From NCBI GenBank assembly GCA_036405175.1, contig DASWYC010000002.1, positions 467,714 to 531,713 of the forward strand: DNA of 64,000 nucleotides, given 5' to 3'. This document shows positions 19,322 to 58,334 of the stretch, in pieces. The notes under the pieces were generated by a model. The model did not search any database. It saw nothing but the letters and a program-made list of their open reading frames with translations, and was not told the DNA's origin. This DNA comes from Minisyncoccota bacterium (GTDB taxonomy: Bacteria; Patescibacteriota; Minisyncoccia; Phycocordibacterales; UBA1006). The translations under genes were made by a program, and so were the position numbers. Within the stretch, counting starts at the first letter, position 1; each line of letters starts with the position of its first letter.

Positions 19322-21298
19322 TTATTTATTGAGTTCAGCACGAGTCTTTGGCCCAACGATTCCGTCAGCTACCAATCCGTGTTGTTTTTGCCATGCTTTT
19401 ACTGCAGCACGCGTAAGCGGTCCAAAGATACCGTCAATCTTTCCTTTATAAAGATCTCCGAGTACTTTTTGAAGTTCAATCACTTCATCTCCAATTGATC
19501 CATAGCGGAGTGTCATAGTGAAGCGATATGAGCTTGCTCCCAAAACTTCTCCACCTGTTGTTGAACCTGTTGAAGATGATGCGGTTGTTCCGGTTGAGCT
19601 TGATGAGGTTCCTGATGTTGAAGAACCAGTATCAATTGCTCCACCTCCCCCGCCAGAAACCACTGCTGGTCCAGACAATGTAGTCATTCCAGCATCCGTC
19701 CAATAAGGAGTAGTACTGATGCTTCCAACATTTCCTGAGAAATCAGGATTTGCTGATCCCCAGTAGTTGCTTTGAACGTTAAGATTGTTTCCACTGTCAT
19801 TCTTTACCTTTGGAGTATCAAATGAGTTATTGGTTACGGTTACCTGTGCTGCGTTAGCAGATGTTCCATCCGCAACAGCTCCAGTTGAGTGACATGAGTC
19901 AATACTCAAGAGGAATGTGTCGCCAGTAGCGCTGGTAATGTTTGAGATAGTATTGTTAGTGATAACTACACTTACTGGAACAGTAGTATTTGCACAGGTT
20001 GGCGTAACTTCAATACCACGTGCCCATCCTTGTGAACCAATAGTATCAATTTTGTTTCCAGAAATAATTGCATCATTAATAACTCCTTGAATCATAACTC
20101 CGTATGACCCCTTGGTATTTGCGTTAACAATTGAAGAGATTACGTTGTTTGAAATAGTAGTGTTATTAAGTGTTGCACTGTCGCTGTATACATGAACTCC
20201 TTTTACGCTTACGCCATTCCATGAGGGATTGGTGATTGCAAGTCCAGATACAGTTACATCACTTGAAGTAATAAGAATTGCTCCGGTTACGGTAGCTTCG
20301 GGAAGACGTGAAGCGGTTCCAGCAAGCCCTTGGTTTGGACCAACAAGTTTTACTGATTTTGCAATAGCAACATCTTCAGCATATGAGCCAGCTTTAACAT
20401 TGATAGCTCCTCCCGCAATTACTGCATTGTATCCAGCGTTAATTGTAAGGAATGGGTTTTGCTGAGTTCCCTGATCGTAGTTAGCATCGCCGGTTGCTCC
20501 CGCTTCAACATATACGTTAGAAAGCGTAGGAGTTGCGAATGCTTTGTTGATGATAAGTGCATTGTTGTTAGCAGCAGAAATTCCTGCAACATCGGTATAA
20601 TTGTTGGTTCCTGCAGGAATAAATGCAAAGTCAACCGTGTTTCCTGATCCAGTGTTTCCGGTGATAGTAATATTTGCATCAGCAACAATTACCCATCCTT
20701 TGGTTCCCGATACGGTGTTGTTTGAGATAGTTCCGGTTGAAGCATCAAAGTATCCAGGTTGGCGGAAGTTAGCAATGGTGTTTCCGTCAATAAGGAATCC
20801 GGTAACACCCGGACTCATTACCACAACGCGTGATACATCAGGATCACCAATAACATATTGTCCGGTGAATGAGTTATTTGAAATAGTTGCGTTGTTAGCC
20901 TGAACACCAATCATGTGCTGACCAGTTTTGTCAGTCTTAGTGAAGGTAAGATCTTGGATCGTTACCCCAGCTGCAGTAATAGTGAAGAGTTGATTTGAAC
21001 CAGAGGTTTCAATTGCTCCACCATTCATTCCTTTAATAGTGATTACCTTGGTGATAGTAGTACCGGCAGTGAGGTTCTCAGTAGTTCCATCAAAAATAAT
21101 TGTGTCACCATCTACTGCTACAGTGTATGCATCAGCGAAGGTGTCAAATGGATCTGCTTGTGTTCCTGTTCCAGGAGCAACTGCAGGGGTACCAACATAC
21201 AAGTCGGTTGCAGCAAAAGTAGTTTTTGCAGACGAAGCAACAACAATAAATGTTGCAATGAGTGCAAAACCAAATGCTTTGAAAAGTTTAGCTGTCAT
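19322..21298 (-). CDS. secreted right-handed beta-helix repeat protein with Gly/Ser/Thr linker and C-terminal peptidoglycan-binding domain
   Basis: Signal peptide; many NNTISNN / ITNNTIS parallel beta-helix repeats; poly-G/S/T linker. C-terminal DEVIELQKVLGDLYKGKIDGIFGPLTRAAVKAWQKQHGL resembles PG_binding_1. Confidence 0.6.
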   Translation of the reverse strand: MTAKLFKAFGFALIATFIVVASSAKTTFAATDLYVGTPAVAPGTGTQADPFDTFADAYTVAVDGDTIIFDGTTENLTAGTTITKVITIKGMNGGAIETSGSNQLFTITAAGVTIQDLTFTKTDKTGQHMIGVQANNATISNNSFTGQYVIGDPDVSRVVVMSPGVTGFLIDGNTIANFRQPGYFDASTGTISNNTVSGTKGWVIVADANITITGNTGSGNTVDFAFIPAGTNNYTDVAGISAANNNALIINKAFATPTLSNVYVEAGATGDANYDQGTQQNPFLTINAGYNAVIAGGAINVKAGSYAEDVAIAKSVKLVGPNQGLAGTASRLPEATVTGAILITSSDVTVSGLAITNPSWNGVSVKGVHVYSDSATLNNTTISNNVISSIVNANTKGSYGVMIQGVINDAIISGNKIDTIGSQGWARGIEVTPTCANTTVPVSVVITNNTISNITSATGDTFLLSIDSCHSTGAVADGTSANAAQVTVTNNSFDTPKVKNDSGNNLNVQSNYWGSANPDFSGNVGSISTTPYWTDAGMTTLSGPAVVSGGGGGAIDTGSSTSGTSSSSTGTTASSSTGSTTGGEVLGASSYRFTMTLRYGSIGDEVIELQKVLGDLYKGKIDGIFGPLTRAAVKAWQKQHGLVADGIVGPKTRAELNK

Positions 21299-45372: not shown

Positions 45373-45386
45373 AAGCAAGAGATTGA

Positions 45387-45419
45387 AACAGGCGCGACCT
45401 TCGGTCGCGCCTGTTTCAA
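45387..45419. terminator. bidirectional hairpin terminator
   Basis: GAAACAGGCGCGACC-TTCG-GGTCGCGCCTGTTTC perfect 15-bp stem between fmt (+) and the pilin cluster (-). Confidence 0.8.
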
Positions 45420-45424
45420 TCATC

Positions 45425-45943
45425 TTAACTATGCGGAAAATCTTTATACTTCACTCGCTCAACGACTGCACTAAAATATGGATCGGTCGCAAGCGGCGCC
45501 ACCATTGCTCCGCTGCTTTGTCTACAACTACTAAAGCCGCGCGCAAACATCATTGATTGGCTCCCCTGACTACCCAATGTGCTCCCATTAAGATCATAAT
45601 AGATAATTGCCTGAGCACAGGTTCCTGTTGTGGTATCAATCATACCCGTCAACATACGATATTTAAAGGTCCCATTTGTGCCTGATGTATATGAAGCCGA
45701 ATTTCCATTACATGTATATCCTGACGATGGCCATGTTGCGTTATTGAGTCGATCGTATCTAAATGCACACTCCATCATTGCATCAAGTGCCTCATAGGCA
45801 TTATTTTTATTCTGTGTAGTAATAGTTTGCATAGCACGAGATTTACCAATCTCGGTGATTGAAACGAACGCAAGCGAAAGAACACCAATCACTACAATCA
45901 CATACAAGAGCGCAATTCCTTTTTGAGATTTAAGATTATTCAT
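45425..45943 (-). CDS. GspK/PilX-like pseudopilin (no Glu5)
   Basis: N-terminus KSQKGIALLYVIVVIGVL lacks the +5 Glu, like GspK-type minor pseudopilins; last gene of the pilin operon. Confidence 0.45.
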   Translation of the reverse strand: MNNLKSQKGIALLYVIVVIGVLSLAFVSITEIGKSRAMQTITTQNKNNAYEALDAMMECAFRYDRLNNATWPSSGYTCNGNSASYTSGTNGTFKYRMLTGMIDTTTGTCAQAIIYYDLNGSTLGSQGSQSMMFARGFSSCRQSSGAMVAPLATDPYFSAVVERVKYKDFPHS

Positions 45944-46446
45944 ACCAGTTTGTAAAAATCGCTTTAGCTGCCACCGACTGAGTACTGCCCCGCTCTTGAT
46001 ATGTCACGGTTGAATTTACGCGAATTTCTGAAGGTCGTCCATTTGAGTCTGTGTTTAACGTATCAACTGTAATAGTACGTGTAAATGGCGAAGCTGTTGT
46101 TGCAGCTGCCTGATGTCCATATCCAAGTGCGCTTATTTTAAGTGCCGGACATGTTCCTGAACACGGCTTAAGCTCCGGGAGCGCAGCTCCGTCATTTACT
46201 ACATAGCATGGGACACTTGCCGTACACGTATTAATCGTTAAGTAGAAAAGTTTTTGTTGAAGAAGATTTGAATCTTTAATTGCACGAACTAATTCTGTCC
46301 CCTCTTCTGCAAGTAGCTCAGCCTGAATACGTACATCAGAACCAACCGTAGTGCGCAATGAATTTCCTAGTGCAAAAATTACTCCTGTTGTTACAAGCAT
46401 CAAAATGGTTACTGCGATTAATGTTTCAATAATGGTAAATCCTTTC
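45936..46446 (-). CDS. type IV pilin-like minor pilin (prepilin N-terminal methylation motif)
   Basis: MKGFTIIETLIAVTIL class III signal peptide: G-1, F+1, E+5. Confidence 0.6.
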
Positions 46447-46449
46447 ATA

Positions 46450-47136
46450 CTATTGCCATGTACTATTATATACATTTTGAATATTAACAATATTTCGTGA
46501 CTCGACCGTAAACTGGAATGTATAGTCTTTTGATGTGCCTCCAGCTGGAACAATGGTTCGTGCACGCATGAGCACGGTCACACGTGGGTGTACCGTCTTC
46601 TCTCCAATCTCGCCATCACCAATTGGTTTAAAACAAATTGAGTATACAGAAAGATCTTTAACGAGTGGCAACATCACCGTGTATTTTGTTGGATCAGCAG
46701 AATCAACATCAGTAGTAAGAACTAAACGCACGGTCTGCTGGTTGGCACTTGGAATATTAACCTTTTGAGTTGTTAAAAGATAGAGTGTCTGTTCATATCC
46801 ATCTTCCATAACATGATCAAGGTCATCATCCAACATTCCTATAGTCTCACCAAATCCCTGTGCTCCATCGCAGGCACTATTTGCTCCAAAGTTCTGCGCT
46901 GTTCCTAAATCAATCAGTTTGTATCCTGTATATTTTCTAAGTTCATTTTTGATTGAAAAGAGTGACTCGCTAAAATTCACCACGTAGTCCTGCTCTTTTT
47001 GAGATTTGCGCTGCGCACTCATGATTGTTGCAATAAGCCCCATTGCAGACAACGTAATAATTAAAAAGACTGTGATAGCAACCATCATTTCAACCAAAGT
47101 AAATCCTTTCAATTTTTTAATGATTTTTATAGACAT
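46450..47136 (-). CDS. type IV pilin-like minor pilin (PilW/GspJ-like)
   Basis: KKLKGFTLVEMMVAITVFLI prepilin motif. Confidence 0.6.
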   Translation of the reverse strand: MSIKIIKKLKGFTLVEMMVAITVFLIITLSAMGLIATIMSAQRKSQKEQDYVVNFSESLFSIKNELRKYTGYKLIDLGTAQNFGANSACDGAQGFGETIGMLDDDLDHVMEDGYEQTLYLLTTQKVNIPSANQQTVRLVLTTDVDSADPTKYTVMLPLVKDLSVYSICFKPIGDGEIGEKTVHPRVTVLMRARTIVPAGGTSKDYTFQFTVESRNIVNIQNVYNSTWQ

Positions 47137-47813
47137 ACTTGAGTAGTGCAGGCGCGACCAATAACCATCCCTCCATATGGAGACAATGTAATTGTGTACC
47201 ACAATGGTTGAAGTGGTGTTTTAAAGCTGAGTCGTATTCCTCTGCCAGAGTAGTAATCGGTGCCGGTCGAACTTGCAAAGAATGCGTACGGCCGCTCATT
47301 TGAGCCATGGTACGCCAAAGAAACTCCCTGCTGAAGCTGAGTTCCTGCTGTTGCCGTAGCTTCACAGTTAGCATGCGAGTCGCTCACAAAACATACTGAA
47401 TCAAATACTACACCAGGTGGAATGGTAATCGTTTTATAGATAGTATCACCGCCAGAAGCACTATACGCAAAAGAACCATACTGGGTTTTACTATAGCTTC
47501 CCGCTTTGCGATACAACGAAATGGTATTTCCTTGAACCAAAATACCACGCACTCCAGCAATATTTGCTGATGTACTTGGTGTATATTCCGCAAGTGATGC
47601 CGTACGGAATGACGCCAAGTCTGCGTATGAGCTTGCACGTACGGCGCCTTGTCCATATACGCTTGGCGTAAGTCCGCTCTGAACCTCAGAAATAAATGCT
47701 GCAATTTCTCCTTTACGAAGTGCATTTTGATAACTAAACACCCCAACAATGGTGAGTATTCCCAAAATCAGAAATACAACGAGCATTTCCGCAAGCGTAA
47801 AAGCTTTTTTCAT
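47127..47813 (-). CDS. type IV pilin-like protein (Ala at -1)
   Basis: MKKAFTLAEMLVVFLILGIL prepilin motif with A-1 and E+5. Confidence 0.6.
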   Translation of the reverse strand: MKKAFTLAEMLVVFLILGILTIVGVFSYQNALRKGEIAAFISEVQSGLTPSVYGQGAVRASSYADLASFRTASLAEYTPSTSANIAGVRGILVQGNTISLYRKAGSYSKTQYGSFAYSASGGDTIYKTITIPPGVVFDSVCFVSDSHANCEATATAGTQLQQGVSLAYHGSNERPYAFFASSTGTDYYSGRGIRLSFKTPLQPLWYTITLSPYGGMVIGRACTTQVCL

Positions 47814-47844: not shown

Positions 47845-48687
47845 TTAGCCCAAAATACCCACGATCACAACACCAACAAATGCAATAATGAGCGATGGCC
47901 CAAACGGAATTACCTGCCCTCGCTTAAGTTTAAATGTTTTATGAGTGCGATAGTTTTCAACGAATGCCCACAGTAGTCCAATAATAGACGCTCCAAAAAG
48001 TGTCATCATCAAGAAGAAGAGACTCTGTTCAAAGAAAAACTTCGGCACACAATTTTTACAAAAATTTGCGAATGATAGCAATGGGAATACCAACATACCC
48101 ATAGCTCCCATTAAGATACCGTCACCATACCCCATCCATCGCTCCCTAGAGCCGATTGAAATAAGTACGAGCGGCATTGCCCACAACAATCCACTGCCAA
48201 GAATATATTTAATAAATATCAAAAATGGCGCTGCTTGAGGATTAATAAGAATAAATACCAGGATTATGGTAATAAGAACAACTGCATACAGCCATGCTAA
48301 TAATACATTTGGAAATACATAGTGGCGCGCATCAATAAGTGCCAAGAGCATAAAAAGACTTAAAATAGTACTTCCCACCAAAGCCCACACCGCTGCGTTC
48401 ATAGTAATGCCCATGAATCCAACAATGGTATAGATCATCAAAGAAAACACGAGTGCAAAACCAGCTTCAATAGCAATGTATGACCCTGAGCCTCTTATCT
48501 TGCATGTCTTACACCCAATAAACGCCCCAACAAATGGGATGAGTGAAGCTACTTCTAGCGGCTTTCCGCAATTATCACACTGCGAACGACCATGCATGGT
48601 TTTTACCCCAAACCGATCTGCAAAGCACATAAGAAAACTCGCCAATGTTCCCCCTAATAAAATAACAAGCATGACGAATATGATCAT
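47845..48687 (-). CDS. pilD: prepilin peptidase / N-methyltransferase (A24 family)
   Basis: N-terminal CxxC...CxxC zinc-binding motif (CFADRF...CDNCGKPL...CKTC), polytopic membrane domain, acidic residues of A24 peptidases. Confidence 0.85.
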   Translation of the reverse strand: MIIFVMLVILLGGTLASFLMCFADRFGVKTMHGRSQCDNCGKPLEVASLIPFVGAFIGCKTCKIRGSGSYIAIEAGFALVFSLMIYTIVGFMGITMNAAVWALVGSTILSLFMLLALIDARHYVFPNVLLAWLYAVVLITIILVFILINPQAAPFLIFIKYILGSGLLWAMPLVLISIGSRERWMGYGDGILMGAMGMLVFPLLSFANFCKNCVPKFFFEQSLFFLMMTLFGASIIGLLWAFVENYRTHKTFKLKRGQVIPFGPSLIIAFVGVVIVGILG

Positions 48688-48720: not shown

Positions 48721-50781
48721 TTAGTGAGGCATTTTAGTTCCATCAGCCTTGAGCATCACCGTATATCCTTGCTGTTGTCCATCCCAGTTACTAAACTCTC
48801 CAACCACAAAGAGTGAACCATCTGAATTCTCTGAAACAGAGCGGACAATGCGTGTTCCCAAAGCACCACTTGGACTGGTTCCATACTTAGATGGACGATA
48901 CTTGTTTAACTCAACAATTCCGTTACCTGCGTTGAATGTTGTATCAAGTGCTCCAGCTGCTGTAATACGAATTATATTATTCACACTTGTTGTGTTATAT
49001 TTATTAACATCACCAAATACCAATATCTTTCCAGATGAGAGCTTAATCATATACGCACCATATCCTGCTTCGATCTTGAGACTTCCACTATTAAATGTGG
49101 CGTCAGTTGTTCCATTGCTGTTAAGGCGCATGATATTTTTATAATTGTTATTTGATGAAGTAAATTGTCCTGAGATATATATCTTGCCATCAATTTCAAT
49201 AATTGATTGAATCCATGCAAAGTTATTAAATTGACTACGTGAAACACGGAATGAAGTATCAACGGTTCCATCACTGTTGAGGCGTGCCATTACTGACTCT
49301 CCTGGTGTTATATTTTTAATATCAAAGTCACCACTTGTAGAACTTGCTCCTGTTGCAGCATAGATTTTACCATCTGAAGCTTTCATAAGAGGCGCAACCC
49401 ATCCACCTCCGCCCCATACAAGTTGGTCACTGCTAATCTGATTTGATGCCATGGTTCCATCAGAGTTCAAAATAACAATTCCACTAAGAACATCTTGTCC
49501 TGATGATTTAGTATTGTCATCCCATTTCTTAAAGCGTCCACTTACCCAAATCTTTCCAGCTGATTCAATACTTGAAGCAGTACCACAATACGGTGCACCA
49601 AGGCCACACATAAGTCCATCATCAAGTTTGGTCATGAATGCACTATCAAGTGTTCCATTTGAGTTGAGCATGATGAGTCCTTTACCATCTACGCGAAGAT
49701 CGTTATACGTAGTTTCTGCAGAATCATCAAAGCCTGAACCAAGTACTAAGATCTTACCAGTACTCAACACATTAACTCCCGCAGTACCAGCACCTCCTCC
49801 TTGAGTGAAGAATGGTTCTGCATCAGTATCAGGATTAGAACTGCCGTTTTCATTTGCACCCTTAAGACCGTTGAGTGCTCCGGTGGTTTGGAATGTGGTA
49901 TCAAGCTCTCCTTTTTGATTAATACGTGCAAGCTTCCATACGGTGGTAGTGTCGTACATATTAAAGCTTCCTCCTACCACATATTTGCCGTCTTGCTGCA
50001 CATCCGCAGTTCTTACAATGTAGTTAAATGGTGCGAAGTGATTGCTTGGTCCACAAACGTCACCCACTGATCCGTCTTTGTCACACGCATCACAAGGATC
50101 TTGTTCGTTAGGAATTCCGTCATCATCGCAATCGGTATCACAATCGTCCCACTGGGTGGTGGGATTATCGATACAAATATTACAATTTGCCTGTCCAGGA
50201 GTACATACCTGTCCCCCATCTTGACTAAATCCAGATCCAAGTTCATAAACCACCGTTGAGTTATCAGGATCACACTGCCAGTCATCAACTAAGTTGGTTG
50301 GTGAAATTTCACCGGCAAATCCGGTATAGTCCGTACAATACATGGTCACATTTGGTGACTTAGTTTCAATATCGGCAATAACAAACCATGCAGTTCCGTC
50401 ACTCTTTTCGTGACAGGTTACGGCATTGTCTTTTCCGATATCGGTATTTGATGCAACTTCTTTTACAAACGAATCACTTGCTGGATTATATGCAGCATAT
50501 GAAAGACGCTTGGTTACACTTTGTGCATCCTCAACAAATCCAACTGAACACAAATCATTTCGATATACTTTTGCGTTTGTTGAACCTCCAACGGTTGTTG
50601 GTGTTAATAATACTTCTGACTTCTGACGAAGTGCAGAAACGGTTTTAATAGCAGCTGCTTTTGCTGCACGCTGACGCGCTCCTGCCAATGAAGGAAGAAG
50701 TACGGTAGCAAGAATAATAATTACTGACAATGATATAAGTAGCTCGGGGAGCGTAAGTGCTTTAAGAGTACGATGATTCAT
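48721..50781 (-). CDS. large pilin-like adhesin: prepilin N-terminus + thrombospondin-type-3-like Ca-binding Asp/Cys motif + delta-60-like repeat (beta-propeller) domain
   Basis: KALTLPELLISLSVIIILA prepilin helix (A-1, E+5). DCDDDGIPNEQDPCDACDKDG resembles TSP3 DxDxDGxxDxxD. About 5 repeats of ..S/NDGT.DTSF.. / AAGALDTTFNAGNG resemble the delta-60 repeat. Confidence 0.55.
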   Translation of the reverse strand: MNHRTLKALTLPELLISLSVIIILATVLLPSLAGARQRAAKAAAIKTVSALRQKSEVLLTPTTVGGSTNAKVYRNDLCSVGFVEDAQSVTKRLSYAAYNPASDSFVKEVASNTDIGKDNAVTCHEKSDGTAWFVIADIETKSPNVTMYCTDYTGFAGEISPTNLVDDWQCDPDNSTVVYELGSGFSQDGGQVCTPGQANCNICIDNPTTQWDDCDTDCDDDGIPNEQDPCDACDKDGSVGDVCGPSNHFAPFNYIVRTADVQQDGKYVVGGSFNMYDTTTVWKLARINQKGELDTTFQTTGALNGLKGANENGSSNPDTDAEPFFTQGGGAGTAGVNVLSTGKILVLGSGFDDSAETTYNDLRVDGKGLIMLNSNGTLDSAFMTKLDDGLMCGLGAPYCGTASSIESAGKIWVSGRFKKWDDNTKSSGQDVLSGIVILNSDGTMASNQISSDQLVWGGGGWVAPLMKASDGKIYAATGASSTSGDFDIKNITPGESVMARLNSDGTVDTSFRVSRSQFNNFAWIQSIIEIDGKIYISGQFTSSNNNYKNIMRLNSNGTTDATFNSGSLKIEAGYGAYMIKLSSGKILVFGDVNKYNTTSVNNIIRITAAGALDTTFNAGNGIVELNKYRPSKYGTSPSGALGTRIVRSVSENSDGSLFVVGEFSNWDGQQQGYTVMLKADGTKMPH

Positions 50782-50853: not shown

Positions 50854-51324
50854 TTACTGACATGAGTTTGCATCAATATTTGCATACCCTGTTGAAGGAA
50901 CTACAGCTGCAAATCCACCAGAGTCTACACAAAAAATTGAAACATTGCTTCCTGTGATATCAACATCCATTGCTGCAACAAAATTATCAGTACCAGAAGT
51001 ACAGAAGTTAGCACCATTCGTAGTCGCAACGGTAGCACTTGGAGCTGCAGCGGTTGAATATCCAAGTGTGGTTCTTGCCTTATCAAAGAGGTCGCGTACA
51101 CCATTTACTCCTGCAGTGGTACAAATGCTTGCAGGCAAATTACCGCTTATTGTTCTAAGACGTTCAGCTTCTGATCTAAGAGATGAGAGTGACGATGTTG
51201 CACTTGCACTTTTAGCCTTGTTACGTGCCCCAGACAATGACGCCAACGCAACAGATGCAAGAATACCAATAATTGCTACCACAACGAGAAGCTCGATGAG
51301 GGTGAATCCTTTTTTAGAGTGAAT
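50854..51324 (-). CDS. type IV pilin (PilA-like), paralog 1
   Basis: KKGFTLIELLVVVAIIGILASVALASLSGARNKA. The N-terminal coding 94 bp is identical to the paralog at 52004-52480; Cys pair in the C-terminal region. Confidence 0.7.
   Translation of the reverse strand: MHSKKGFTLIELLVVVAIIGILASVALASLSGARNKAKSASATSSLSSLRSEAERLRTISGNLPASICTTAGVNGVRDLFDKARTTLGYSTAAAPSATVATTNGANFCTSGTDNFVAAMDVDITGSNVSIFCVDSGGFAAVVPSTGYANIDANSCQ
51221..51314. repeat. 94-bp perfect direct repeat (copy A) within the pilin 5' coding region
   Basis: Identical to 52368-52461; encodes the conserved pilin N-terminal helix. Confidence 0.85.
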
Positions 51325-51401
51325 CATATAAATAGATGAGTTAGAGCTCATAAAGATACCTATGAAAGGTTGAATTTAGTATACCATGCCTCGTACGTGT
51401 T

Positions 51402-51968
51402 TTAATTGAATGGCACGTTACTTAAATCGAATACCCAATCTTGTGCTTGACCAGAACTGTCTCCTGTTTTTATAAATGGCTTTCCAAACATACACCCAGC
51501 ACTTCCCTGCGTACAGCTGGCACTCATAGTAGCGTTAACAACGGTCATACATGTGTTTGCGCTTCCACTAAATTGAATGATTCGGTCATCATCATGCTGA
51601 AGCTCACGCCCATCAGGACTTCCTAGCATTGTGCTTACTGAGTATGCTTCACAGGTGCTCGTATTTCCATCAAGATCAAATGCAATGTATGTCACCTGCG
51701 CCTTTTGATCAGTGCTAAAATTTTGAAATTGAACCAAATTTGAATCATTTAACGATGCTGGATATTTTCCGTATTTTGCTTTATATGATTCAACGTTACC
51801 CGTAATAGATCTTACAAGACTGGCTTTATTGGTGTCATCGCCTACGGTGCGACTTCGGCTTACCATTACGGTAATAATACCAATAAACACTCCAATGAGA
51901 CCTATCACCACAAGCAGTTCAATTAATGTGAATGCTTGTAGAGACGATCTATTAGAGTGTTTTTTCAT
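51402..51968 (-). CDS. type IV pilin-like protein
   Basis: LQAFTLIELLVVIGLIGVFIGI prepilin motif with A-1. Confidence 0.6.
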   Translation of the reverse strand: MKKHSNRSSLQAFTLIELLVVIGLIGVFIGIITVMVSRSRTVGDDTNKASLVRSITGNVESYKAKYGKYPASLNDSNLVQFQNFSTDQKAQVTYIAFDLDGNTSTCEAYSVSTMLGSPDGRELQHDDDRIIQFSGSANTCMTVVNATMSASCTQGSAGCMFGKPFIKTGDSSGQAQDWVFDLSNVPFN

Positions 51969-52003: not shown

Positions 52004-52480
52004 CTAGTTACATGCGGTAGAAGCAATAGCCGTTGAGGTGCTCTTAGCGTTTCCAGAGTCATCAACACAGAAGTAACTGGTTGCAGAAGTACTTGAGTCA
52101 AGGTCCATGATAACCGCAATGCTTGATGGTGATGTTGAAGCATTGATAGTACATACAACAGTGTTACCTGCACCAGTTCCTGTACCGTTGTTGGTGTTGG
52201 TCTTAGTATAGGTACCTCCTGCTGAAGTAACAGCCTTGTCAATCAAGGTAAAGATTGAACCTGCAGAACAAACAGTCGCAGGAAGAGAACCATCTGAACC
52301 GCGCAAAGTTTCAGCTTCTGCACGGATTGCAGAGATAGTTGATTGAGCACTTGCCTGACGTGCACGGTTACGTGCCCCAGACAATGACGCCAACGCAACA
52401 GATGCAAGAATACCAATAATTGCTACCACAACGAGAAGCTCGATGAGGGTGAATCCTTTTTGGGTTTGGGTGTTTTTCAT
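52004..52480 (-). CDS. type IV pilin (PilA-like), paralog 2
   Basis: TQKGFTLIELLVVVAIIGILASVALASLSGARNRA; divergent C-terminal domain with conserved Cys. Confidence 0.7.
   Translation of the reverse strand: MKNTQTQKGFTLIELLVVVAIIGILASVALASLSGARNRARQASAQSTISAIRAEAETLRGSDGSLPATVCSAGSIFTLIDKAVTSAGGTYTKTNTNNGTGTGAGNTVVCTINASTSPSSIAVIMDLDSSTSATSYFCVDDSGNAKSTSTAIASTACN
52368..52461. repeat. 94-bp perfect direct repeat (copy B) within the pilin 5' coding region
   Basis: Identical to 51221-51314. Confidence 0.85.
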
Positions 52481-52520: not shown

Positions 52521-52943
52521 TTACGCGGCTAGTTTTCCACTGTTTCCTGAGTCTTCTCCTATGCGATGTTCAGAGTTAAAGGTATTTTTACCATGAGCCT
52601 GATCCTCCTCTTCTCCGCCTTCGTCTTCAAATTCATCATCAAATCCTCCATCTTTATATGCAGATACGGCTTCCTTATAATTCTGAGCCGTTGTTTTAAG
52701 GAGTTCAATGTACTTAGGCAATTCAGCACTTAAACGCTTAAAGAGATCGTCTTCATCTTTTGCTTCTTCAGTAATTTGCTCAAAGAGATTTGCCTCTTCT
52801 TCACTTGCTTGCTCAAGAAACTTCTCAAGTGCTTCGTTATATACCGTAAACGCTATTTCTGGGAAAATTTCTTCTGCTTCATCTTTAGGAAATGCAGACA
52901 TTCCTGTGTGTTCGTAGATAAGATAATCAAGTGGTGAATTCAT
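52521..52943 (-). CDS. acidic hypothetical protein
   Basis: 140 aa, strongly D/E-rich (DEFEDEGGEEED), between the giant protein and the first pilin gene. Confidence 0.45.
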   Translation of the reverse strand: MNSPLDYLIYEHTGMSAFPKDEAEEIFPEIAFTVYNEALEKFLEQASEEEANLFEQITEEAKDEDDLFKRLSAELPKYIELLKTTAQNYKEAVSAYKDGGFDDEFEDEGGEEEDQAHGKNTFNSEHRIGEDSGNSGKLAA

Positions 52944-52960
52944 ATGAAATCAGTATATCA

Positions 52961-55900
52961 TTATTTCTTAAATTTAAGTCCACCACGTAAACGCACAAGA
53001 TCACGCAACTTTTTCTGCTGTTCCAGGAATGCTTCAAAACGGAACAAGCGCAACATATAGTTCTTAAGAGGTTCTCCCTTAAGTGGACGGATTCCCATTT
53101 TAAGACCCTTTCCATGCTCATTTACCATCAAAAACTCTGGTGGAATACCTGCGCGTACCAAATTAGCAGTTCCATTTCGAATCGATTCCACTGAACTTCC
53201 TGGTTCATATGCATAGGTGCTACTAATCAGACTGTGAACCTCTGGTGTAGATATCTCAATTGGTGAGTTCTGTAATTCAACCTTCATTGTTTCTGGATTT
53301 ACTACCAACTGATTAAATGGCTTTTGTGCACCCGGGAAATTTGGAACATTTTGAATATCTTTATTAAGATCAATGACCAACTGATTCACGCTGTAGAGCT
53401 TTGCATTGAGCTGGGTTTTTAATGAACGCTCTGCAGGGTTCAATGAGGCGACATCGCCTTTTACACGACCACCCTGGGCCAACATCTTTTCAACTGTTGG
53501 ATTAGTATCAAAGTATCCTGGGATTTTTTCATTGGGACCAATAATATTAACCTTCTCTTTCCCTACCATGCCGTCAAGCTTCATCCATGCATCAAGCTTT
53601 TCTTTGGCACCAAAGTCGTAATCCCCTTCTTTGATTATGCGAGGGTTATACATCTTGGTATAAATTTGATCCCATTCTAATTGAGTTTTTGGGAGACGCG
53701 TTGAAACACCAGGCGTACCAAGCATTTCATCTGGTGTAGTAATATGTCCAAAAATGTTATCAAGATACAATCCCCCTGTTCCTTTTTTAATATTTGCCAA
53801 CAATTCACCGGTAATTACTGGATCAGCATTTACCTCCATAAATTCACGAACAATCTGCTTGCGGAGTTCTGCATTATTTAATGTAAACAAAGTTGCATAT
53901 TGATCACCCTCAAGCGGCGGCTTGGTCCACATGCGTGAATACTTGGTAATACTATTGAGTGCCCCATTTTTATCAAGAGATCCAGAATACTGAACTCCAT
54001 TACTATCTAAACCGGCACGCACAATATTAGGATCAACAAAATACCCTTCTCGAGAACCTGAGTAAACAAGATTGCCAGGATTCAAAGGATCTTCAAGTTG
54101 AACAGCTTTAATTTGAGGATTATATGTTTCTGATCCAGTTCCAAAGCCATCGTCATCCGTAACAAATCTTGGACCACCCATACTATCAACGGTTCGATTA
54201 GTTATTACAGGGCTTGCAGCACTGGTATTTACTGTTCCAACGTCATCATCGGTAACCATCTCTACTTTTTCTGAAGATGGAGTTAGTATCTGATTCTGTC
54301 CAAATTTGTCCATTTCAAGCTCATTACTAAAATCATCTGAAATAATGCCAGCGTTATATGATGAAACTGGAGCCCTTTGAGACGCAATCATGTCTTGCAT
54401 TTCTTTATCTAATGCTTCTCGAGATGAAGAAATTCCCTGATCACTCATTGATGGAGGAGCAATTTCCTGATCATTGTTGTCAATAAAATTGCTTGCAGTT
54501 TTTGGAATAACCACATTATCAACCGGAGGTTTAAACTCTGGCTCAGGCGCCTGAGCAATATCATCATCTGTTACAAAACGAGGATTTTCCTGAGCGTCCA
54601 ATCCGCCAGCTGCCTCGGCAACATCTTTCGGCAATTTATTTTCAGCAATAATCTTCTCTGCTACTTCTCGTGCTTTTTCATCTACAGATCCAAGATCTTG
54701 AGCCTCAATCTTAAGACGATGTTGAGGAATAACCTTAGCCTCATATGGAACTTTATTATCAGGGTTACCTGGCTGAGTATTAAATAATTTATTTGGATCA
54801 ATTTGTTGAGTCTTAGGAGGCACTTCTTCTCCATGTGCCCCAAATACGTCGTGAGCAAGGCCCAATAATGCACCCAATGCAATAAATCCTGCTGATACTG
54901 ATGCTTGTTTTGCAGCTTTTTCTGCAACGTATTTTCGCTTAGCAGATTTAATTACCTCAACTTGAGCTTTAATTTTTCGGATGCGCTCTTCTTCTGCTGT
55001 TTCAGACTGAGCTGGACTAGTAATTGTTTCAACCTGAGCACGCTTATCTGAATACGTAGAAATTAAATATGCTGCACCCATCACCTTATTCAAGGTTAAA
55101 TATTCAGTTGCACGTTTACCTATTTCAGAATCCTCAAGTTCTGGATCAACGATTCTTCCATCTACTTGATTTTCAGAACTAAATGTTAACAGTCTATTCT
55201 TAAGAGCAATATTAGAAAGTTCATATAAATCCTGAATCTTTTTCTGGGCACGTGTTACATTAAAGTAATCATCTGGATCAATGTCATCATATTCTGCAAT
55301 TGCATTTCTGAGCTGTTCGATCATATCGCTTGCAGCTACATTCTCCTTCCGCATCGCCTCAATAACACCCTGTTCCCCCCTGTTCATAAGGCGACCATAC
55401 CAAGCAAATAGTCCCTTTTTATAGATCTTCTCTTCAGTACCTTTGATTGATGCTGATTCGCCCTTATACCCAGGAGCCTTCTCAAAATCCTTACCCATAC
55501 CAAGCATTTCATACGTACGCTTATGATTTAAACGTGCGTTCTCCTGAACAGATGCCAACGCAAAACGCACCACAGCACCAAGCCCCATAGTTGGTAACAA
55601 ATTAGTAAACGCCACCGCATGATCAACAGTCATACCAACAATTTTTCTACGCAAATACCCAAGAGACATTGAGGCACCCGCATATGCAGCTGATCGTCCA
55701 TACTTGCGCTCAACTTTCTTTTCATGATCAAGCTCAACCTCTACCATGCGCATAAAGTCACCTGCCGACTTTGAGGAAATAGCATTACTCATAATATCAG
55801 CTCGCAATGCATCAGGAACCTGCCCCTCCAAAGATTCAACAAGCTTTACCAACTCAAGCTCTTTAAAACTAATTTTCTCTCGCTCGGCAGTCTGAAATGG

Positions 55901-58292
55901 ATCATGTAAGCCAAAGAATTTTTTAACACCAGAAAATGTTTCTTTAATCTCTTTTCCAATCTTGGTGCGACCTTCTTCTGTTGTCACATTATTTAAAAGA
56001 TTCCCCGTTGCTTTAATTGGTACATTTACGATTGTTGAAACCGTGTCACCAAAATCCTGTTTACCAAGCTCTTTCCAAAAACTCTTCTTTCCCATTTTCT
56101 GTAAGAGTGAGTGTTCTTTAGGAGGACCAAGCTTAAGATAATCATCGGAGAGTTCGTTCAAAGAACCAATAATCTTGCTTCTCACTGACTCGTCCGCAAT
56201 TCCATCAAGAGAGTTTTCTAAATCTTCACGATCTGCAAAAGCATCACGCTTTGTATTAATATACGTATTTACAAGTTCCTTCATTTTATAGGTAAATTCA
56301 TCTTTCAATTTATCTTGTGCTTCCCCATCAAATTCTGCAATGGTTGTCTTTACTCCAACACCAAAAAAGCGTTTGGCCTTGGCAAGCTTACCGAGCATTT
56401 TAGGAACAAAAGTTCCATCTTGCATCTCACCAGCATATTTATTATTACGAAAATCAATTTCCTGTTCACGCTCAAAGGCTGTCTTCATTGAATACAAGAC
56501 TTTCTTAAGAATGAGTTCACGATGATTTGATGGAATATGTTCAAGGTCAGGAATTTCATCAAGTATTTCCTGTTGAGTAAATCCATACTTTTCATATGAT
56601 TCGGTAATATCAAACGTATGTTCCTCTTTTTTGAGCTCAGCTTTTTTAGGTTCAACCATTAGAGGAGTCTTTCTATCAAGAGGAACGGGCTCTTTATCAG
56701 TATCAGCCTCTTCATTTTCGTCCAACTTTGGAATCCCCATGTGATCAATTGGTTGAGCATATAGTTTACCTATTTTGTTTACAACCTTATTCAAGAAGCT
56801 CGGTTTTTTTTCTTCATCCTCTACATCATCTGTAAGTTTTAGATCCTCCTGCTTAATCTCTACCGAAAGTGGATACGGATTAGTACCAACAGGAGCAAAT
56901 GGCACATTCCCCATCTGGTTAAACATCCTATTTAAAAGACTTGGCTTCTGTTCACCTGCTTCTACTGGAATCTCTTCTTTTGGTTCAATAACATCGTCCG
57001 GTTGTGAGACTGAATAAGGAACATATCCCACAGGAGAAAATTCAACATTCCCCATTTGATTAAAGATCCTATTCATAAAACTTGGCTTTGACTCACCTAC
57101 CTCTAGCGGAACTTCTTCTTGCTGCAACACATCACCACCTGGCTCAAGTTCGCCACCTTCTGGAGATGGAGTAATAAGCATATGGTCCACAGGATATCCT
57201 GACATATCGCCCACCTTTTGCACCATCCTACCAATTCGCGTAGCATTTTGTTGTGCAATCTTTTTTTCTTTTTGTTTTTCTTGAAGCAGGCGTTCCTCTT
57301 CTGATCCAGGCTCTAAAAGATTATTGTTATCAGAATCATCCTCCATTACTACGTTTTCAATATTACCAGTGGTAAACGGTGCCATAGATCTATTGATTGA
57401 AACAAATGCATCCGTAATTGGCGTCGCTAGATTCATATGGATAAAACTAAAGAGATCCCTACCACTGTCAGGAATTGTATTTACCGTTAAACCGCCATTT
57501 TTATATTTTTCATAAAATTCTTCTAGCTTTTTCTGCTTTACAAAACCACTCTGGATTCCTAATTCCAAAAAAGATTTTGGAAAATTGAGGTCTTCGTAGA
57601 ATGCTAAAACATTCGGCGCAAGCTCGAGCTTCTTGCTTTCTTGTTCAACAGAAGCGCTAATTAGCTGAGAAAAGATACTTTCTCTTTTTGTTTTATTATC
57701 CTTAATATACTCATCAAAAATTACTGCCTCATCGGTAATATTGTATGCAACAAATACGCGCTTTAGATTTGAAGGTATCTCATCAGCCTTGTTCACATCT
57801 GTAACTTTTGCAGCTGACAATAAAAGCACCTTGCGAACTAAGTCTTTATTATTAATATCAATATACGACGCAAGCTTTTCAGCAAATAGATAGAATTCAG
57901 CGTTATTGTAATAATCTATACGAGAAGCGATCTGTTCAAAAGAAAGAGGGCTTTGGGTATTGTTAAGAACATTCTGCAGACTCGTTGCACACTCACTTTT
58001 TTCTGCCTTTGTTTTAGATTTGTACCCTACGAGTTTACTCAATAAGCGTGCCCACACAATAACTTCATCGTCAATTGATATATTATCTTGTTTTTTAAGT
58101 TCTTTTATAAACTTAAGCACACTTTTTGATTCCCATAATACATATTGTGTTTCTTTCAAAAAGGCATCCAGATAGACCCCATTCTCACTTTTTAATTTTT
58201 CAGCAAAAGCAACATCAAAAGGTTTAAATTCTTTTTCTGAATCCTTCCGAGACTCTTCTTGATTTTTTTGCGGACCATTCTCCAACGACATG
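52961..58292 (-). CDS. giant (about 1776 aa) multidomain protein of unknown function
   Basis: Continuous ORF. First ATG at 58292 is preceded by TATACT + 6 nt; the ORF track extends to TTG 58309. Internal 3x tandem repeat about 45 aa (KPSFMNRIFNQMGNVEFSPVGY / KPSLLNRMFNQMGNVPFAPVGT / KPSFLNKVVNKIGKLYAQPIDHMG). Duplicated PRFVTDDD motif, central hydrophobic segments, no N-terminal signal peptide. Confidence 0.7.
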
Positions 58293-58334
58293 TTCTTAGT
58301 ATACAACAATAACCATCTTAAAAGATGGTTATTG

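What the first reader, a model, noticed from the sequence alone, without database searches (positions are those of the whole stretch)
48721..50781. 686-aa pilin-anchored adhesin: prepilin helix + TSP3-like Ca-binding Asp/Cys cluster + delta-60-like repeat propeller
The N-terminus is a class III (prepilin) signal with Ala at -1 and Glu at +5. The body carries an acidic Cys-rich DxDxDG-type motif and at least five ~55-aa repeats with (S/N)DGT.DT(S/T)F cores, typical of delta-60 repeat beta-propellers. This architecture suggests a tip or minor pilin presenting an adhesive propeller, which is rarely described. It lies directly upstream of pilD.
Basis: partly seen in the sequence, partly recalled or inferred. 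Interest (0 to 1): 0.6.

Follow-up and report, generated by a model that had tools for sequence, protein, structure and literature searches.

The report
Pilus subunit carrying a propeller head
This gene from an ultra-small (CPR/Paceibacterota) bacterium encodes a type IV pilus subunit fused through a cysteine- and aspartate-rich stalk to a seven-bladed "delta-60" propeller, most likely a sticky head shown on the pilus; this design is already catalogued, so it is a new example, not a new principle.

Summary
Window 48721-50781 (-) is a real 686-aa ORF, 100% identical to a Candidatus Paceibacterota "hypothetical protein". It has four parts:

- **Signal:** a class-III-type signal, MNHRTLKA|LTLPE.
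- **Pilin module (aa 9-172):** a complete four-cysteine module, homologous end to end to about 100 stand-alone pilins and to the neighbouring pilin genes.
- **Stalk (aa 173-245):** 73 aa with 8 Cys, 17 acidic residues and an invariant DxDxDG loop.
- **Propeller (aa 246-686):** delta-60/DUF5122, above both curated cut-offs. I count seven repeat units, not five.

The gene sits in a nine-gene operon: three pilins, this gene, a prepilin peptidase 33 nt downstream, four minor-pilin-like genes, then a strong terminator.

TSP3 kinship is not supported (8 bits against a cut-off of 25). The N-terminal motif fails the curated N-methyl HMMs.

The best reading is a modular type IV pilin presenting a ligand-binding propeller. 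This is not new in kind. Raynaud et al. 2021 list pilin + IPR013431 architectures. The Saccharibacteria propeller-bearing pilin PilX2 is needed for efficient host binding.

Verdict: new member of a known kind, modest interest. Cleavage, pilus incorporation, calcium binding and adhesion are all inferred.

The parts
50758..50781 (-). Leader peptide, aa 1-8 (MNHRTLKA); predicted prepilin-peptidase cleavage after Ala8
   Evidence: Sequence. Homologs read RG|FTLPE (P0003) and KA|FTLPE (P0004). Ala at -1 also occurs in two other pilin genes of this operon and in 5 of 97 related pilins.
50611..50757 (-). Alpha-1 helix, aa 9-57, with Glu13 (= +5) and hydrophobic alpha-1N (LTLPELLISLSVIIILATVLLPSL)
   Evidence: AF2 model with MSA gives a helix at 11-57, with pLDDT 86-90 over residues 11-30. 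The best PDB sequence matches are pilin alpha-1 helices (Geopilin E 0.0076; Thermus PilA). BLASTP to pilin 52004-52480 gives 51% identity over aa 2-58, E 6e-15.
50266..50610 (-). Globular part of the pilin module, aa 58-172, with four Cys (C78, C123, C149, C170)
   Evidence: It aligns end to end with stand-alone pilins, for example P0025 '...VTCHEKADQSAWAV...MFCVDSTGLA...FSCPP'. It also aligns with neighbour pilin 50854-51351 over aa 7-162. 82 of 98 relatives have exactly 4 Cys. AF2 confidence here is low (pLDDT 30-50), with an alpha+4-strand topology only.
50047..50265 (-). Acidic, Cys-rich stalk/linker, aa 173-245 (8 Cys, 17 D/E, 1 K/R); length varies between homologs
   Evidence: P0003 and P0004 carry extra CxNPxPxTGxC-type insertions. 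Total Cys counts are even in all three members: 14, 16 and 18.
50053..50139 (-). Conserved core of the stalk, aa 215-243: DTDCDDDGIPNEQDPCDACDKDGSVGDVC, containing a DxDxDG loop (D217-x-D219-x-D221-G222); putative Ca2+ site
   Evidence: 24 of 42 columns are invariant in the 3-member alignment. Pfam TSP_3 gives only 8 bits, E=3. No PDB relative was found.
48724..50046 (-). Seven-bladed delta-60 (DUF5122) beta-propeller, aa 246-686. Units: [675-686 + 252-283], 286-359, 372-425, 438-492, 500-549, 552-604, 606-673
   Evidence: PF17164 scores 145 bits and TIGR02608 126 bits. The unit HMM supports seven units. AF2 pLDDT is mostly 75-95, with seven groups of strands. Foldseek matches NHL, DFPase and other propellers at probability 1.0, with TM about 0.5 on the target. 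A profile search found 5638 delta-60 proteins.
47845..48687 (-). Prepilin peptidase (PilD-like), 280 aa, 33 nt downstream of the target
   Evidence: A24_N_bact scores 38.9 bits (cut-off 23). Peptidase_A24 scores 21.2 bits, below its 26.5 cut-off. It has CDNC/CKTC pairs, plus D119 (IDAR) and D189 (GYGD). No NCBIfam hit.
52004..52480 (-). Pilin (158 aa, G|FTLIE), first gene of the pilin run
   Evidence: N_methyl 37.3 bits and TIGR02532 38.5 bits.
51402..51968 (-). Pilin (188 aa, QA|FTLIE, Ala at -1)
   Evidence: N_methyl 22.6 bits and TIGR02532 20.1 bits.
50854..51351 (-). Pilin (165 aa, G|FTLIE), paralog of the target's pilin module
   Evidence: N_methyl 37.4 bits. BLASTP to the target gives 32% identity over aa 7-162, E 1e-8.
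45425..47813 (-). Four minor-pilin-like genes: 47127-47813 (A|FTLAE), 46450-~47136 (G|FTLVE), 45936-~46475 (G|FTIIE), 45425-45943 (G|IALLY, no Glu5). Presumed priming/tip complex
   Evidence: N_methyl scores 20.2, 28 and 23 bits for the first three. NCBIfam hits are ComGD/ComGE/ComGF/GspJ/PilV-like and all below cut-off.
45381..45421 (-). Intrinsic-terminator-like hairpin (19-bp stem, 11 GC, T-rich tail) closing the operon

Best explanation
The gene encodes a modular type IV pilin.

**Steps shown by sequence and homology**
1. It has a class-III-type signal (leader MNHRTLKA, Ala -1, Glu +5, about 24 hydrophobic residues).
2. A complete four-cysteine pilin module of the same family as the neighbouring pilins follows.
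3. Next comes a 73-aa acidic stalk with 8 Cys and an invariant DxDxDG loop.
4. A seven-bladed delta-60 beta-propeller completes the protein.
5. The gene lies inside a pilin operon, immediately upstream of a prepilin peptidase.

**Inferred mechanism**
- The adjacent PilD-like peptidase cleaves after Ala8 and methylates Leu9.
- The alpha-1 helix is extracted from the membrane and polymerised into a type IV pilus by an assembly machine encoded elsewhere in the genome.
- The four downstream minor pilins, one of which lacks Glu5, prime assembly and cap the tip.
- This subunit keeps Glu5 and a major-pilin-like module. It is therefore incorporated at low copy, just below the tip complex or sporadically along the shaft.
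- The disulfide-bonded stalk, probably stabilised by Ca2+, holds the roughly 48-kDa propeller clear of the filament surface.
- The propeller binds a ligand, most plausibly a surface glycan or protein of the host or partner cell, given that all cultivated Patescibacteria/CPR bacteria are obligate episymbionts (PMC11623550). Pilus retraction would then pull the cells together.
For: **Architecture.**

**Pilin identity.**
- A phmmer search of aa 1-250 against 1.84 billion representatives gave 101 hits. Nearly all are 140-190-aa proteins aligned over residues ~6-170.
- 97 of 98 of these carry the class III motif, and 82 of 98 have four Cys.
- The module matches the neighbouring pilins with E 1e-8 and 6e-15.
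- The family member P0003 has the canonical G|FTLPE.
- Ala at -1 occurs in two other pilins of the same operon.
- The best PDB sequence matches are pilin alpha-1 helices.
- The AF2 helix 11-57 is confident over residues 11-30.

**Context.**
- The operon runs three pilins, target, PilD, four minor pilins, terminator, with gaps of 31-72 nt.
- This context is conserved in L003, and the pilin-trio + target arrangement is conserved in L001/L002.

**Extracellular character.**
- Cys counts are even (14, 16, 18) in the three members.
- Gly+Ala+Ser+Thr (GAST) content is 36%, against 25-28% in cytoplasmic proteins of this window.

**Propeller.** The AF2 model with MSA has pLDDT 75-95 in this region, and Foldseek gives probability 1.0 to beta-propellers.

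**Precedents.**
- Modular pilins, including IPR012902-IPR013431 architectures (5 of 1219), are catalogued, and S. sanguinis PilB is a proven adhesin (PMC8179133).
- TM7x PilX2 is a CPR minor pilin with a C-terminal 7-bladed propeller. Deleting it halves host binding without abolishing the filaments (PMC11623550).
Against: - The N-terminal motif is sub-threshold for both curated models: PF07963 scores 10.5 against 21.2 bits, and TIGR02532 gives no hit.
- Leu at +1 and Pro at +4 occur in none of 97 related pilins. Pro +4 is conserved within the family.
- No assembly ATPase, PilC platform or PilM/N/O gene was found among the window ORFs that I scanned.
- The AF2 model of the globular pilin part and of the stalk is low-confidence, with pLDDT 25-50.
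- The ortholog in a close relative (L003, about 85% nucleotide identity) is split by a 13-bp deletion in the stalk. The gene may be dispensable, or that 5.6x-coverage assembly may be wrong.
- No ligand, no Ca2+ binding, no cleavage and no incorporation has been shown.
- The delta-60 family has no characterised function that I could find. It has no PDB relative by sequence and no literature in the held library.
Confidence: 0.7

Rival explanations
1. It is a membrane-anchored surface protein, not a pilus subunit. The atypical N-terminus (Ala -1, Leu +1, Pro +4) is not processed. It acts as an uncleaved signal-anchor, so the propeller is displayed on the cell envelope on a pilin-derived pedestal.
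For: - The motif fails PF07963 and TIGR02532.
- Leu +1 and Pro +4 are unseen in 97 related pilins.
- TM7x PilX1 and PilX2 were likewise not predicted to carry PilD signal peptides (PMC11623550).
Against: - The family member P0003 has a fully canonical G|F at the cleavage site with the same downstream sequence.
- Glu +5 and the whole pilin module, including its four Cys, are conserved. That conservation is hard to explain if the module never enters a filament.
- Ala -1 is used by two other pilins of the operon.
- The gene sits directly in front of the peptidase gene.
Confidence: 0.12
2. It is a minor pilin of a competence (Com-like) or secretion pseudopilus. The operon would build a short DNA-uptake or secretion filament, and the propeller would bind DNA or a secreted cargo instead of a host surface.
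For: - The best NCBIfam pilin matches for the target and its neighbours are ComGE, ComGC, ComGD, ComGF and GspG/H/J. All are below cut-off.
- Saccharibacteria, which are CPR bacteria, are naturally competent (PMC10187176, abstract).
Against: - All those matches cover only the shared N-terminal helix and fail their cut-offs.
- In TM7x the propeller-bearing pilin's filament did not contribute to competence.
- The stalk is strongly acidic (17 D/E against 1 K/R), and the whole protein is net acidic (76 D/E against 53 K/R), which does not favour DNA binding.
Confidence: 0.1
3. It is a pilus-delivered enzyme. The propeller would be catalytic (for example a glycoside hydrolase, lyase or esterase-type propeller) and would modify the partner's cell wall instead of merely binding it.
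For: - Foldseek matches include GH130 mannosidases, sialidase/pseudaminidase, levanase, arabinanase, rhamnose-glucuronate lyase and DFPase.
- Modular pilins with predicted peptidase modules exist (PMC8179133).
Against: - Those matches are generic propeller similarity: TM 0.26-0.55 on the target, rmsd 8-19 A, 8-16% identity.
- No catalytic family is hit in Pfam or NCBIfam.
- The closest sequence relatives are delta-60 repeat proteins with T9SS sorting domains and no annotated enzymatic function.
Confidence: 0.08

Closest known systems
Modular type IV pilins (Raynaud et al. 2021, PNAS; S. sanguinis PilB = pilin + vWA, PilC = pilin + lectin), including the catalogued architecture IPR012902-IPR013431(-IPR013431)
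   Same: - An N-terminal class III signal and pilin module, joined by a linker to a C-terminal module that is not specific to pilus biology.
- The gene is encoded in the pilus locus.
- The predicted role is ligand binding presented by the filament.
- Five of the 1219 InterPro modular pilins in their Dataset S1 carry IPR013431. From memory, this is the InterPro entry for the delta-60 repeat (TIGR02608).
   Different: - The module here is a full seven-bladed delta-60 propeller. None of these propeller-type fusions has been studied experimentally in that paper.
- The linker is a long (73 aa), Cys/Asp-rich, length-variable stalk, not PilB's short loop.
- The class III motif is atypical (A-1, L+1, P+4) and would be missed by an IPR012902-based census.
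[quoted passage not shown]
   Same: - It comes from a CPR bacterium.
- It has a pilin N-terminus plus a 7-bladed C-terminal propeller.
- Its signal peptide is non-canonical.
- It is encoded next to the major and minor pilins.
- Its deletion roughly halves host binding while the filaments are still made (PMC11623550). This is the best functional model for the present protein.
   Different: - The PilX2 propeller is made of RCC1 repeats. Here it is made of delta-60/DUF5122 repeats, and no RCC1 hit appears at E<=1.
- No Cys/Asp-rich stalk is mentioned in the PilX2 passages I read.
- The phylum-level lineage differs (Paceibacterota).
- I could not compare the sequences directly.
PilY1 / PilC tip-associated adhesins (P. 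aeruginosa, Neisseria)
   Same: - A beta-propeller is associated with the pilus and implicated in adhesion.
- PilY1 carries a DxDxDG-type Ca2+ site that tunes pilus dynamics (from memory: Orans et al. 2010). This is a possible functional analogy for the DxDxDG loop here.
   Different: - PilY1 is not a pilin. It docks on the minor-pilin tip complex.
- Its propeller belongs to another family (IPR008707). No Pfam hit to it was found, and it is not in the top 50 Foldseek matches.
- Its Ca2+ site lies inside the propeller domain, not in a stalk.
Delta-60 repeat proteins (TIGR02608 / PF17164 DUF5122), mostly secreted proteins, many with T9SS sorting domains in Bacteroidota
   Same: The same repeat family, scoring above both curated cut-offs. 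A profile search found 5638 relatives at about 27-35% identity over the whole propeller.
   Different: - None of the 135 retrieved delta-60 relatives outside this small family has a class III N-terminus.
- The repeats here are degenerate, with long insertions, compared with the regular ~52-aa canonical unit.
Thrombospondin type 3 repeats (PF02412) / generic DxDxDG calcium loops
   Same: The motif D-x-D-x-D-G-x-x-N-x-x-D-x-C is flanked by cysteines, acidic and invariant in the family.
   Different: - It is not significant against the TSP_3 HMM: 8 bits against 25, E=3, and no hit at all for the two homologs.
- No thrombospondin or COMP chain was found with a profile of the core.
- There is a single copy, not an array.

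Membership tests
Type IV pilin (class III signal peptide protein) | Short polar/basic leader ending in Gly (rarely Ala) at -1 | tested here: met
   The leader is MNHRTLKA with Ala at -1. Homologs have G (P0003) and A (P0004). A-1 also occurs in two other operon pilins and in 5 of 97 related pilins.
Type IV pilin (class III signal peptide protein) | Glu at +5 followed by ~20 hydrophobic residues forming alpha-1N | tested here: met
   The sequence is L-T-L-P-E13 followed by LLISLSVIIILATVLLPSL. AF2 gives a helix at 11-57 with pLDDT 86-90 at residues 11-30.
Type IV pilin (class III signal peptide protein) | Curated N-methylation-motif HMM above threshold (PF07963 / TIGR02532) | tested here: not met
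   PF07963 scores 10.5 bits against a 21.2 cut-off. TIGR02532 is not reported at E<=1. Leu +1 and Pro +4 are atypical.
Type IV pilin (class III signal peptide protein) | Globular pilin domain homologous to known pilins, with a C-terminal disulfide | tested here: met
   Residues ~6-170 align with about 100 stand-alone pilins (best E 1e-8 library-wide) and with the neighbouring pilin (E 1e-8). The four-Cys pattern is shared by 82 of 98. Structure-level confirmation is weak, with pLDDT 30-50.
Type IV pilin (class III signal peptide protein) | Cognate prepilin peptidase present | tested here: met
   The adjacent gene 47845-48687 scores 38.9 bits on A24_N_bact and has two CxxC pairs and two Asp motifs. 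Its Peptidase_A24 domain is below cut-off (21.2 against 26.5 bits).
Type IV pilin (class III signal peptide protein) | Assembly machinery (PilB-type ATPase, PilC platform, PilM/N/O) in the genome | tested here: inconclusive
   None was found among the window ORFs that I scanned with Pfam. The rest of the ~668-kb contig could not be read. [quoted passage not shown]
Type IV pilin (class III signal peptide protein) | Cleavage, N-methylation and incorporation into filaments | not testable with these tools
   This needs biochemistry or proteomics of sheared pili.
Modular pilin (sensu Raynaud et al. 2021) | Pilin module plus an extra, independently recognisable domain not specific to pilus biology, joined by a linker | tested here: met
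   The protein has a pilin module (aa 9-172), a linker (173-245) and a delta-60 propeller (246-686). The definition is taken from PMC8179133.
Delta-60 repeat / DUF5122 beta-propeller | Repeat HMMs above the curated cut-off | tested here: met
   TIGR02608 scores 126.3 bits against 76.5, and PF17164 scores 145.2 bits against 27.
Delta-60 repeat / DUF5122 beta-propeller | Closed beta-propeller fold | tested here: met
   There are seven units with a split first/last unit. The AF2 model with MSA has pLDDT 75-95. Foldseek gives probability 1.0 to NHL, DFPase and other propellers. I inferred blade count from repeats and strand groups, not from coordinates.
Thrombospondin type 3 repeat (PF02412) | HMM match above cut-off | tested here: not met
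   The score is 8 bits against a 25 cut-off, E=3. The two homologs give no hit. The PDB profile search found no TSP or COMP chain.
Thrombospondin type 3 repeat (PF02412) | Ca2+ coordination by the DxDxDG loop | not testable with these tools
   The motif D217-x-D219-x-D221-G222 is present and invariant. Binding is untested.
PilY1/PilC tip adhesin | PilY1-type C-terminal propeller domain (IPR008707) and a non-pilin N-terminus | tested here: not met
   No Pfam hit to that family appears at E<=1. PilY1 is not among the top 50 Foldseek PDB matches. The protein has a pilin N-terminus.
PilX2-type (TM7x) propeller pilin | RCC1-repeat propeller | tested here: not met
   No RCC1 family hit appears at E<=1. 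The propeller is delta-60. A direct sequence comparison with PilX2 was not possible.

The most novel reading that the evidence does not exclude
The pilin module is of the major-pilin type: it has four Cys, keeps Glu5 and is a paralog of the operon's putative major pilins. The linker is a long, rigid, disulfide-rich stalk, possibly dependent on Ca2+. On this reading the protein would not be a single tip adhesin. It would be a shaft-decorating subunit, incorporated repeatedly so that the pilus becomes a multivalent 'bottle-brush' of propellers, with Ca2+ controlling stalk rigidity or presentation. The case would also give the first functional handle on the very large, uncharacterised delta-60 repeat family, as a ligand-binding module.
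Probability: 0.15. Interest if true: 0.5.

Novelty: new member of a known kind. Interest (0 to 1): 0.3.

Why it matters
All CPR bacteria cultivated so far live attached to other microbes, and little is known about how they recognise their hosts (PMC11623550). Type IV pili are nearly universal in the group, and one propeller-bearing pilin, TM7x PilX2, is already linked to host binding. This gene is a candidate host-recognition subunit for a Paceibacterota lineage that has no cultured representative.

It also attaches a function-suggesting context (presentation on a pilus) to the delta-60 repeat. I retrieved more than 5600 members of that family, and I found no solved structure by sequence and no literature for it.

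The public record calls the protein 'hypothetical'. Its atypical class III motif is missed by the standard N-methyl HMMs, so censuses of modular pilins based on IPR012902 would overlook this small family.

It does not reveal a new principle.

Tried and rejected
- **Single-sequence AlphaFold2.** Mean pLDDT was 39.9, so the model was unusable. I replaced it with a 68-row MSA model, mean pLDDT 67.6.
- **TSP3 homology.** Pfam on the isolated linkers of all three family members and a PDB search with a profile of the conserved core were both non-significant. I rejected homology and kept only the DxDxDG motif.
- **PilY1/PilC kinship.** No HMM hit and not among the top Foldseek matches. Rejected.
- **Word-indexed homolog search with the pilin-module alignment A2.** It returned only P0024.
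- **Scans for more family members with A2.** GTDB representative genomes gave none. JGI metagenome contigs gave one locus, L004, which turned out to be an unrelated pilin-like protein matching only the N-terminal helix. Together, the family is known from only three lineages.
- **Literature on delta-60 / DUF5122 / TIGR02608.** Nothing functional was found.
- **Assembly chimera.** I considered and rejected this for the fusion. The identical protein is on 7 contigs, and the same architecture occurs in two paralogs from independent assemblies.
- **The 1782-aa upstream ORF.** No Pfam hit and no PDB sequence hit.
Full report
**1. The observation**

The ORF at 48721-50781 on the minus strand is real: 686 aa with an ATG start. 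It is 100% identical to an NCBI protein labelled 'MAG TPA: hypothetical protein VGE63_02870 [Candidatus Paceibacterota bacterium]'. That protein is seen on 7 contigs, the longest 667,975 bp. The window has about 40% GC throughout.

- The N-terminus is MNHRTLKA|LTLPELLISLSVIIILATVLLPSL, with Ala at -1 and Glu at +5.
- There is an acidic, Cys-rich segment.
- There are repeats with cores such as LNSNGTLDSAF, LNSDGTVDTSF and LNSNGTTDATF.
- A prepilin-peptidase-like gene starts 33 nt downstream.

**2. The repeats and the propeller**

Pfam DUF5122 (PF17164) scores 145.2 bits against a cut-off of 27. NCBIfam TIGR02608 'delta-60 repeat' scores 126.3 bits against 76.5. Each detects five stretches.

I built an HMM from 400 canonical repeat units cut out of retrieved delta-60 proteins. 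It resolves seven units:
- 286-359, with an insertion
- 372-425
- 438-492, degenerate
- 500-549
- 552-604
- 606-673, with an insertion
- a split unit whose first part is the C-terminal 675-686 and whose second part is 252-283

The split unit is the usual 'velcro' closure of a propeller.

A single-sequence AlphaFold2 model was useless, with mean pLDDT 39.9. A 68-row alignment gave mean pLDDT 67.6. The propeller region is mostly at 75-95, with seven groups of strands.

Foldseek against the PDB gives probability 1.0 matches to NHL, DFPase, strictosidine-synthase-like, sialidase and GH130 propellers. These matches are loose: TM about 0.3-0.55 on the target, rmsd 8-19 A, 8-18% identity. The fold is therefore a propeller without a close solved relative, and PilY1 is not in the top 50.

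A profile of the three family propellers retrieves 5638 delta-60 proteins at 27-35% identity. Many carry T9SS sorting domains, which marks them as secreted or surface proteins.

**3. The pilin part is a whole pilin module**

The curated N-methyl models do not accept this N-terminus. PF07963 scores 10.5 bits against 21.2, and TIGR02532 is not reported. The only NCBIfam pilin matches are sub-threshold (ComGE, 23 bits).

An exhaustive phmmer search of residues 1-250 against 1.84 billion representatives gives a clearer picture:
- It returned 101 hits.
- Three are family members: P0024, P0004 and P0003.
- The rest are almost all 140-190-aa proteins aligned over query residues ~6-170.

Of these 98 proteins, 97 carry [GA]F[STA]xxE near the N-terminus. 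Gly is at -1 in 92 and Ala in 5. Exactly four cysteines occur in 82, like C78, C123, C149 and C170 here.

An example is P0025, '...SVTCHEKADQSAWAV...MFCVDSTGLA...FSCPP'. The target reads '...AVTCHEKSDGTAWFV...MYCTDYTGFA...WQCDP'.

The module also matches the adjacent pilin genes:
- 32% identity over residues 7-162 with 50854-51351, E 1e-8
- 51% identity over residues 2-58 with 52004-52480, E 6e-15

The two full-length homologs read RG|FTLPE (canonical Gly-Phe) and KA|FTLPE. The best PDB sequence matches are pilin alpha-1 helices. The AF2 helix 11-57 is confident at its N-terminal end. The globular part has only a low-confidence alpha + four-strand topology.

Atypical features remain. Leu at +1 and Pro at +4 occur in none of the 97 relatives. 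Ala at -1 is used by two more pilins in this very operon, QA|FTLIE and KA|FTLAE, so the local peptidase presumably accepts it.

**4. The stalk**

Residues 173-245 contain 8 Cys, 17 Asp/Glu and 1 Lys/Arg. Its length varies among homologs through CxNPxPxTGxC-like insertions. The distal 42 residues are the most conserved stretch of the linker, with 24 invariant columns. They include D-x-D-C-D-x-D-G-I-P-N-x-x-D-x-C-D-x-C-D-x-D-G.

This contains an exact DxDxDG loop. I consider it a plausible Ca2+ site from general knowledge of such loops. Homology to thrombospondin type 3 repeats is not supported:
- TSP_3 gives E=3 and 8 bits against a 25 cut-off.
- The two homologs give no hit.
- No TSP or COMP chain is found with a profile of the core.

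All three family members have even Cys counts: 14, 16 and 18. The protein's Gly+Ala+Ser+Thr content is 36%, against 25-28% in cytoplasmic proteins of the window. Both points are consistent with an extracellular, disulfide-bonded protein.

**5. Context**

On the minus strand, the genes run in this order:

| Coordinates | Gene | N-terminal motif |
|---|---|---|
| 52004-52480 | pilin | G\|FTLIE |
| 51402-51968 | pilin | A\|FTLIE |
| 50854-51351 | pilin | G\|FTLIE |
| 48721-50781 | the target | A\|LTLPE |
| 47845-48687 | PilD-like peptidase | - |
| 47127-47813 | minor-pilin-like | A\|FTLAE |
| 46450-~47136 | minor-pilin-like | G\|FTLVE |
| 45936-~46475 | minor-pilin-like | G\|FTIIE |
| 45425-45943 | minor-pilin-like | G\|IALLY, no Glu5 |

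- The PilD-like gene scores 38.9 bits on A24_N_bact and has CDNC/CKTC pairs and Asp in IDAR and GYGD.
- A 19-bp-stem terminator at 45421-45381 follows the last gene.
- Gaps around the target are 31-72 nt.
- A subunit lacking Glu5 is what is expected of the tip-most member of a minor-pilin cap, as known for GspK-type subunits (from memory).
- No PilB/PilT/PilC/PilM gene was found among the window ORFs I scanned. The machine must be encoded elsewhere.

The arrangement recurs in related assemblies. L003 is syntenic at about 85% nucleotide identity. L001/L002 carry three pilins followed by two tandem paralogs, P0004 and P0003.

The family is very rare. There are three lineages in 1.84 billion representatives, none in GTDB representative genomes and none in the JGI contig scan.

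**6. Mechanism**

*Shown:* the domain architecture, the pilin homology and the operon context.

*Inferred:*
- PilD cleaves after Ala8.
- The subunit is polymerised into the pilus via alpha-1.
- The four minor pilins prime and cap the filament.
- This subunit keeps Glu5 and a major-pilin-like module, so it is inserted at low copy below the cap or along the shaft.
- The stalk holds the ~48-kDa propeller away from the filament.
- The propeller binds a ligand on a partner cell or surface.

The adhesion inference rests on two precedents. In S. sanguinis, PilB (pilin + vWA) is a proven adhesin, and modular pilins are widespread (PMC8179133). In the CPR bacterium TM7x, the minor pilin PilX2 carries a C-terminal heptabladed propeller of RCC1 repeats and has a non-canonical signal. 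It is required for efficient host binding but not for filament formation (PMC11623550).

Rival readings are an uncleaved surface anchor, a competence or secretion pseudopilus subunit, and a catalytic propeller. They are listed with their evidence. None is excluded, and each is less consistent with the conserved pilin module and its context.

**7. Comparison and novelty**

The protein meets the definition of a modular pilin. It is a bona fide delta-60 repeat protein. It fails membership tests for TSP3, PilY1/PilC and RCC1-type PilX2.

The architecture itself is already catalogued. Dataset S1 of Raynaud et al. lists IPR012902-IPR013431-IPR013431 (4 proteins) and IPR012902-IPR013431 (1 protein) among 1219 modular pilins. 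It also lists fusions to RCC1 (IPR000408) and, going by my recollection of several other listed accessions, to Kelch, NHL, BNR and FG-GAP repeats. That IPR013431 is the delta-60 repeat entry is from memory; I could not verify it with the tools.

The particular points here are:
- the Cys/Asp-rich, length-variable stalk with an invariant DxDxDG loop
- the atypical class III motif, which hides the protein from HMM-based censuses
- the major-pilin-type pilin module

I rate it a new member of a known kind, with modest interest (0.3). Its main value is as a candidate host-recognition subunit in an uncultured Paceibacterota lineage. It also offers a functional hint for the uncharacterised delta-60 family, for which I found no PDB relative by sequence and no literature.

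Noticed in passing
L003:492-2542 (ortholog of window 48721-50781): In a close relative (about 85% nucleotide identity, syntenic locus) the gene is split into a 254-aa product (P0024) and a 413-aa product (P0002). The cause is a 13-bp deletion in the stalk region, at about aa 195. The contig has only 5.6x coverage, so this may be a real pseudogene or variant, or an assembly error.
   Followed up: partly
L001:7961-12220 and L002:12273-22220: A second lineage carries two tandem paralogs of the pilin-propeller gene, P0004 (651 aa) and P0003 (739 aa), after a pilin trio and a GIY-YIG ORF. In L002 they are followed by a gene for a 5077-aa product with DUF5122 and PG_binding_1 hits. That product has an N-terminal hydrophobic segment but no class III motif.
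   Followed up: partly
window 52961-58309 (-) and 52521-52943 (-): A 1782-aa ORF has no Pfam hit and no PDB sequence relative. It is followed by a 140-aa highly acidic ORF. Both lie directly upstream of the pilin operon on the same strand. Any relation to the pilus is unknown.
   Followed up: partly
window 45425-45943 (-): The last gene of the operon has a pilin-like N-terminus, MNNLKSQKG|IALLY, without Glu at +5. It has no Pfam or NCBIfam hit. It is a candidate tip-capping minor pilin (GspK/PilX-like by position only).
   Followed up: no
window 46450-47202 and 45936-46565 (-): The longest-ORF starts (GTG) of two minor-pilin-like genes lie well upstream of their class III motifs. The likely true starts are internal ATGs, near 47136 and 46475. 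The genes would then overlap their upstream neighbours by only about 10-26 nt.
   Followed up: partly
window 493-1404 (+): The protein has a 5-hmdU DNA kinase helical domain (PF18723, 55 bits). This domain is known from phage DNA hypermodification systems and is unexpected in a small CPR genome.
   Followed up: no
window 2076-2921 (+): The protein combines a YscW-like lipoprotein domain (129 bits) with a META domain.
   Followed up: no
window 18111-19145 (-) and 19322-21298 (-): A CAP (cysteine-rich secretory protein) domain protein lies next to a 658-aa protein that ends in a PG_binding_1 domain. Both are probably further surface or secreted proteins of this episymbiont-type genome.
   Followed up: no
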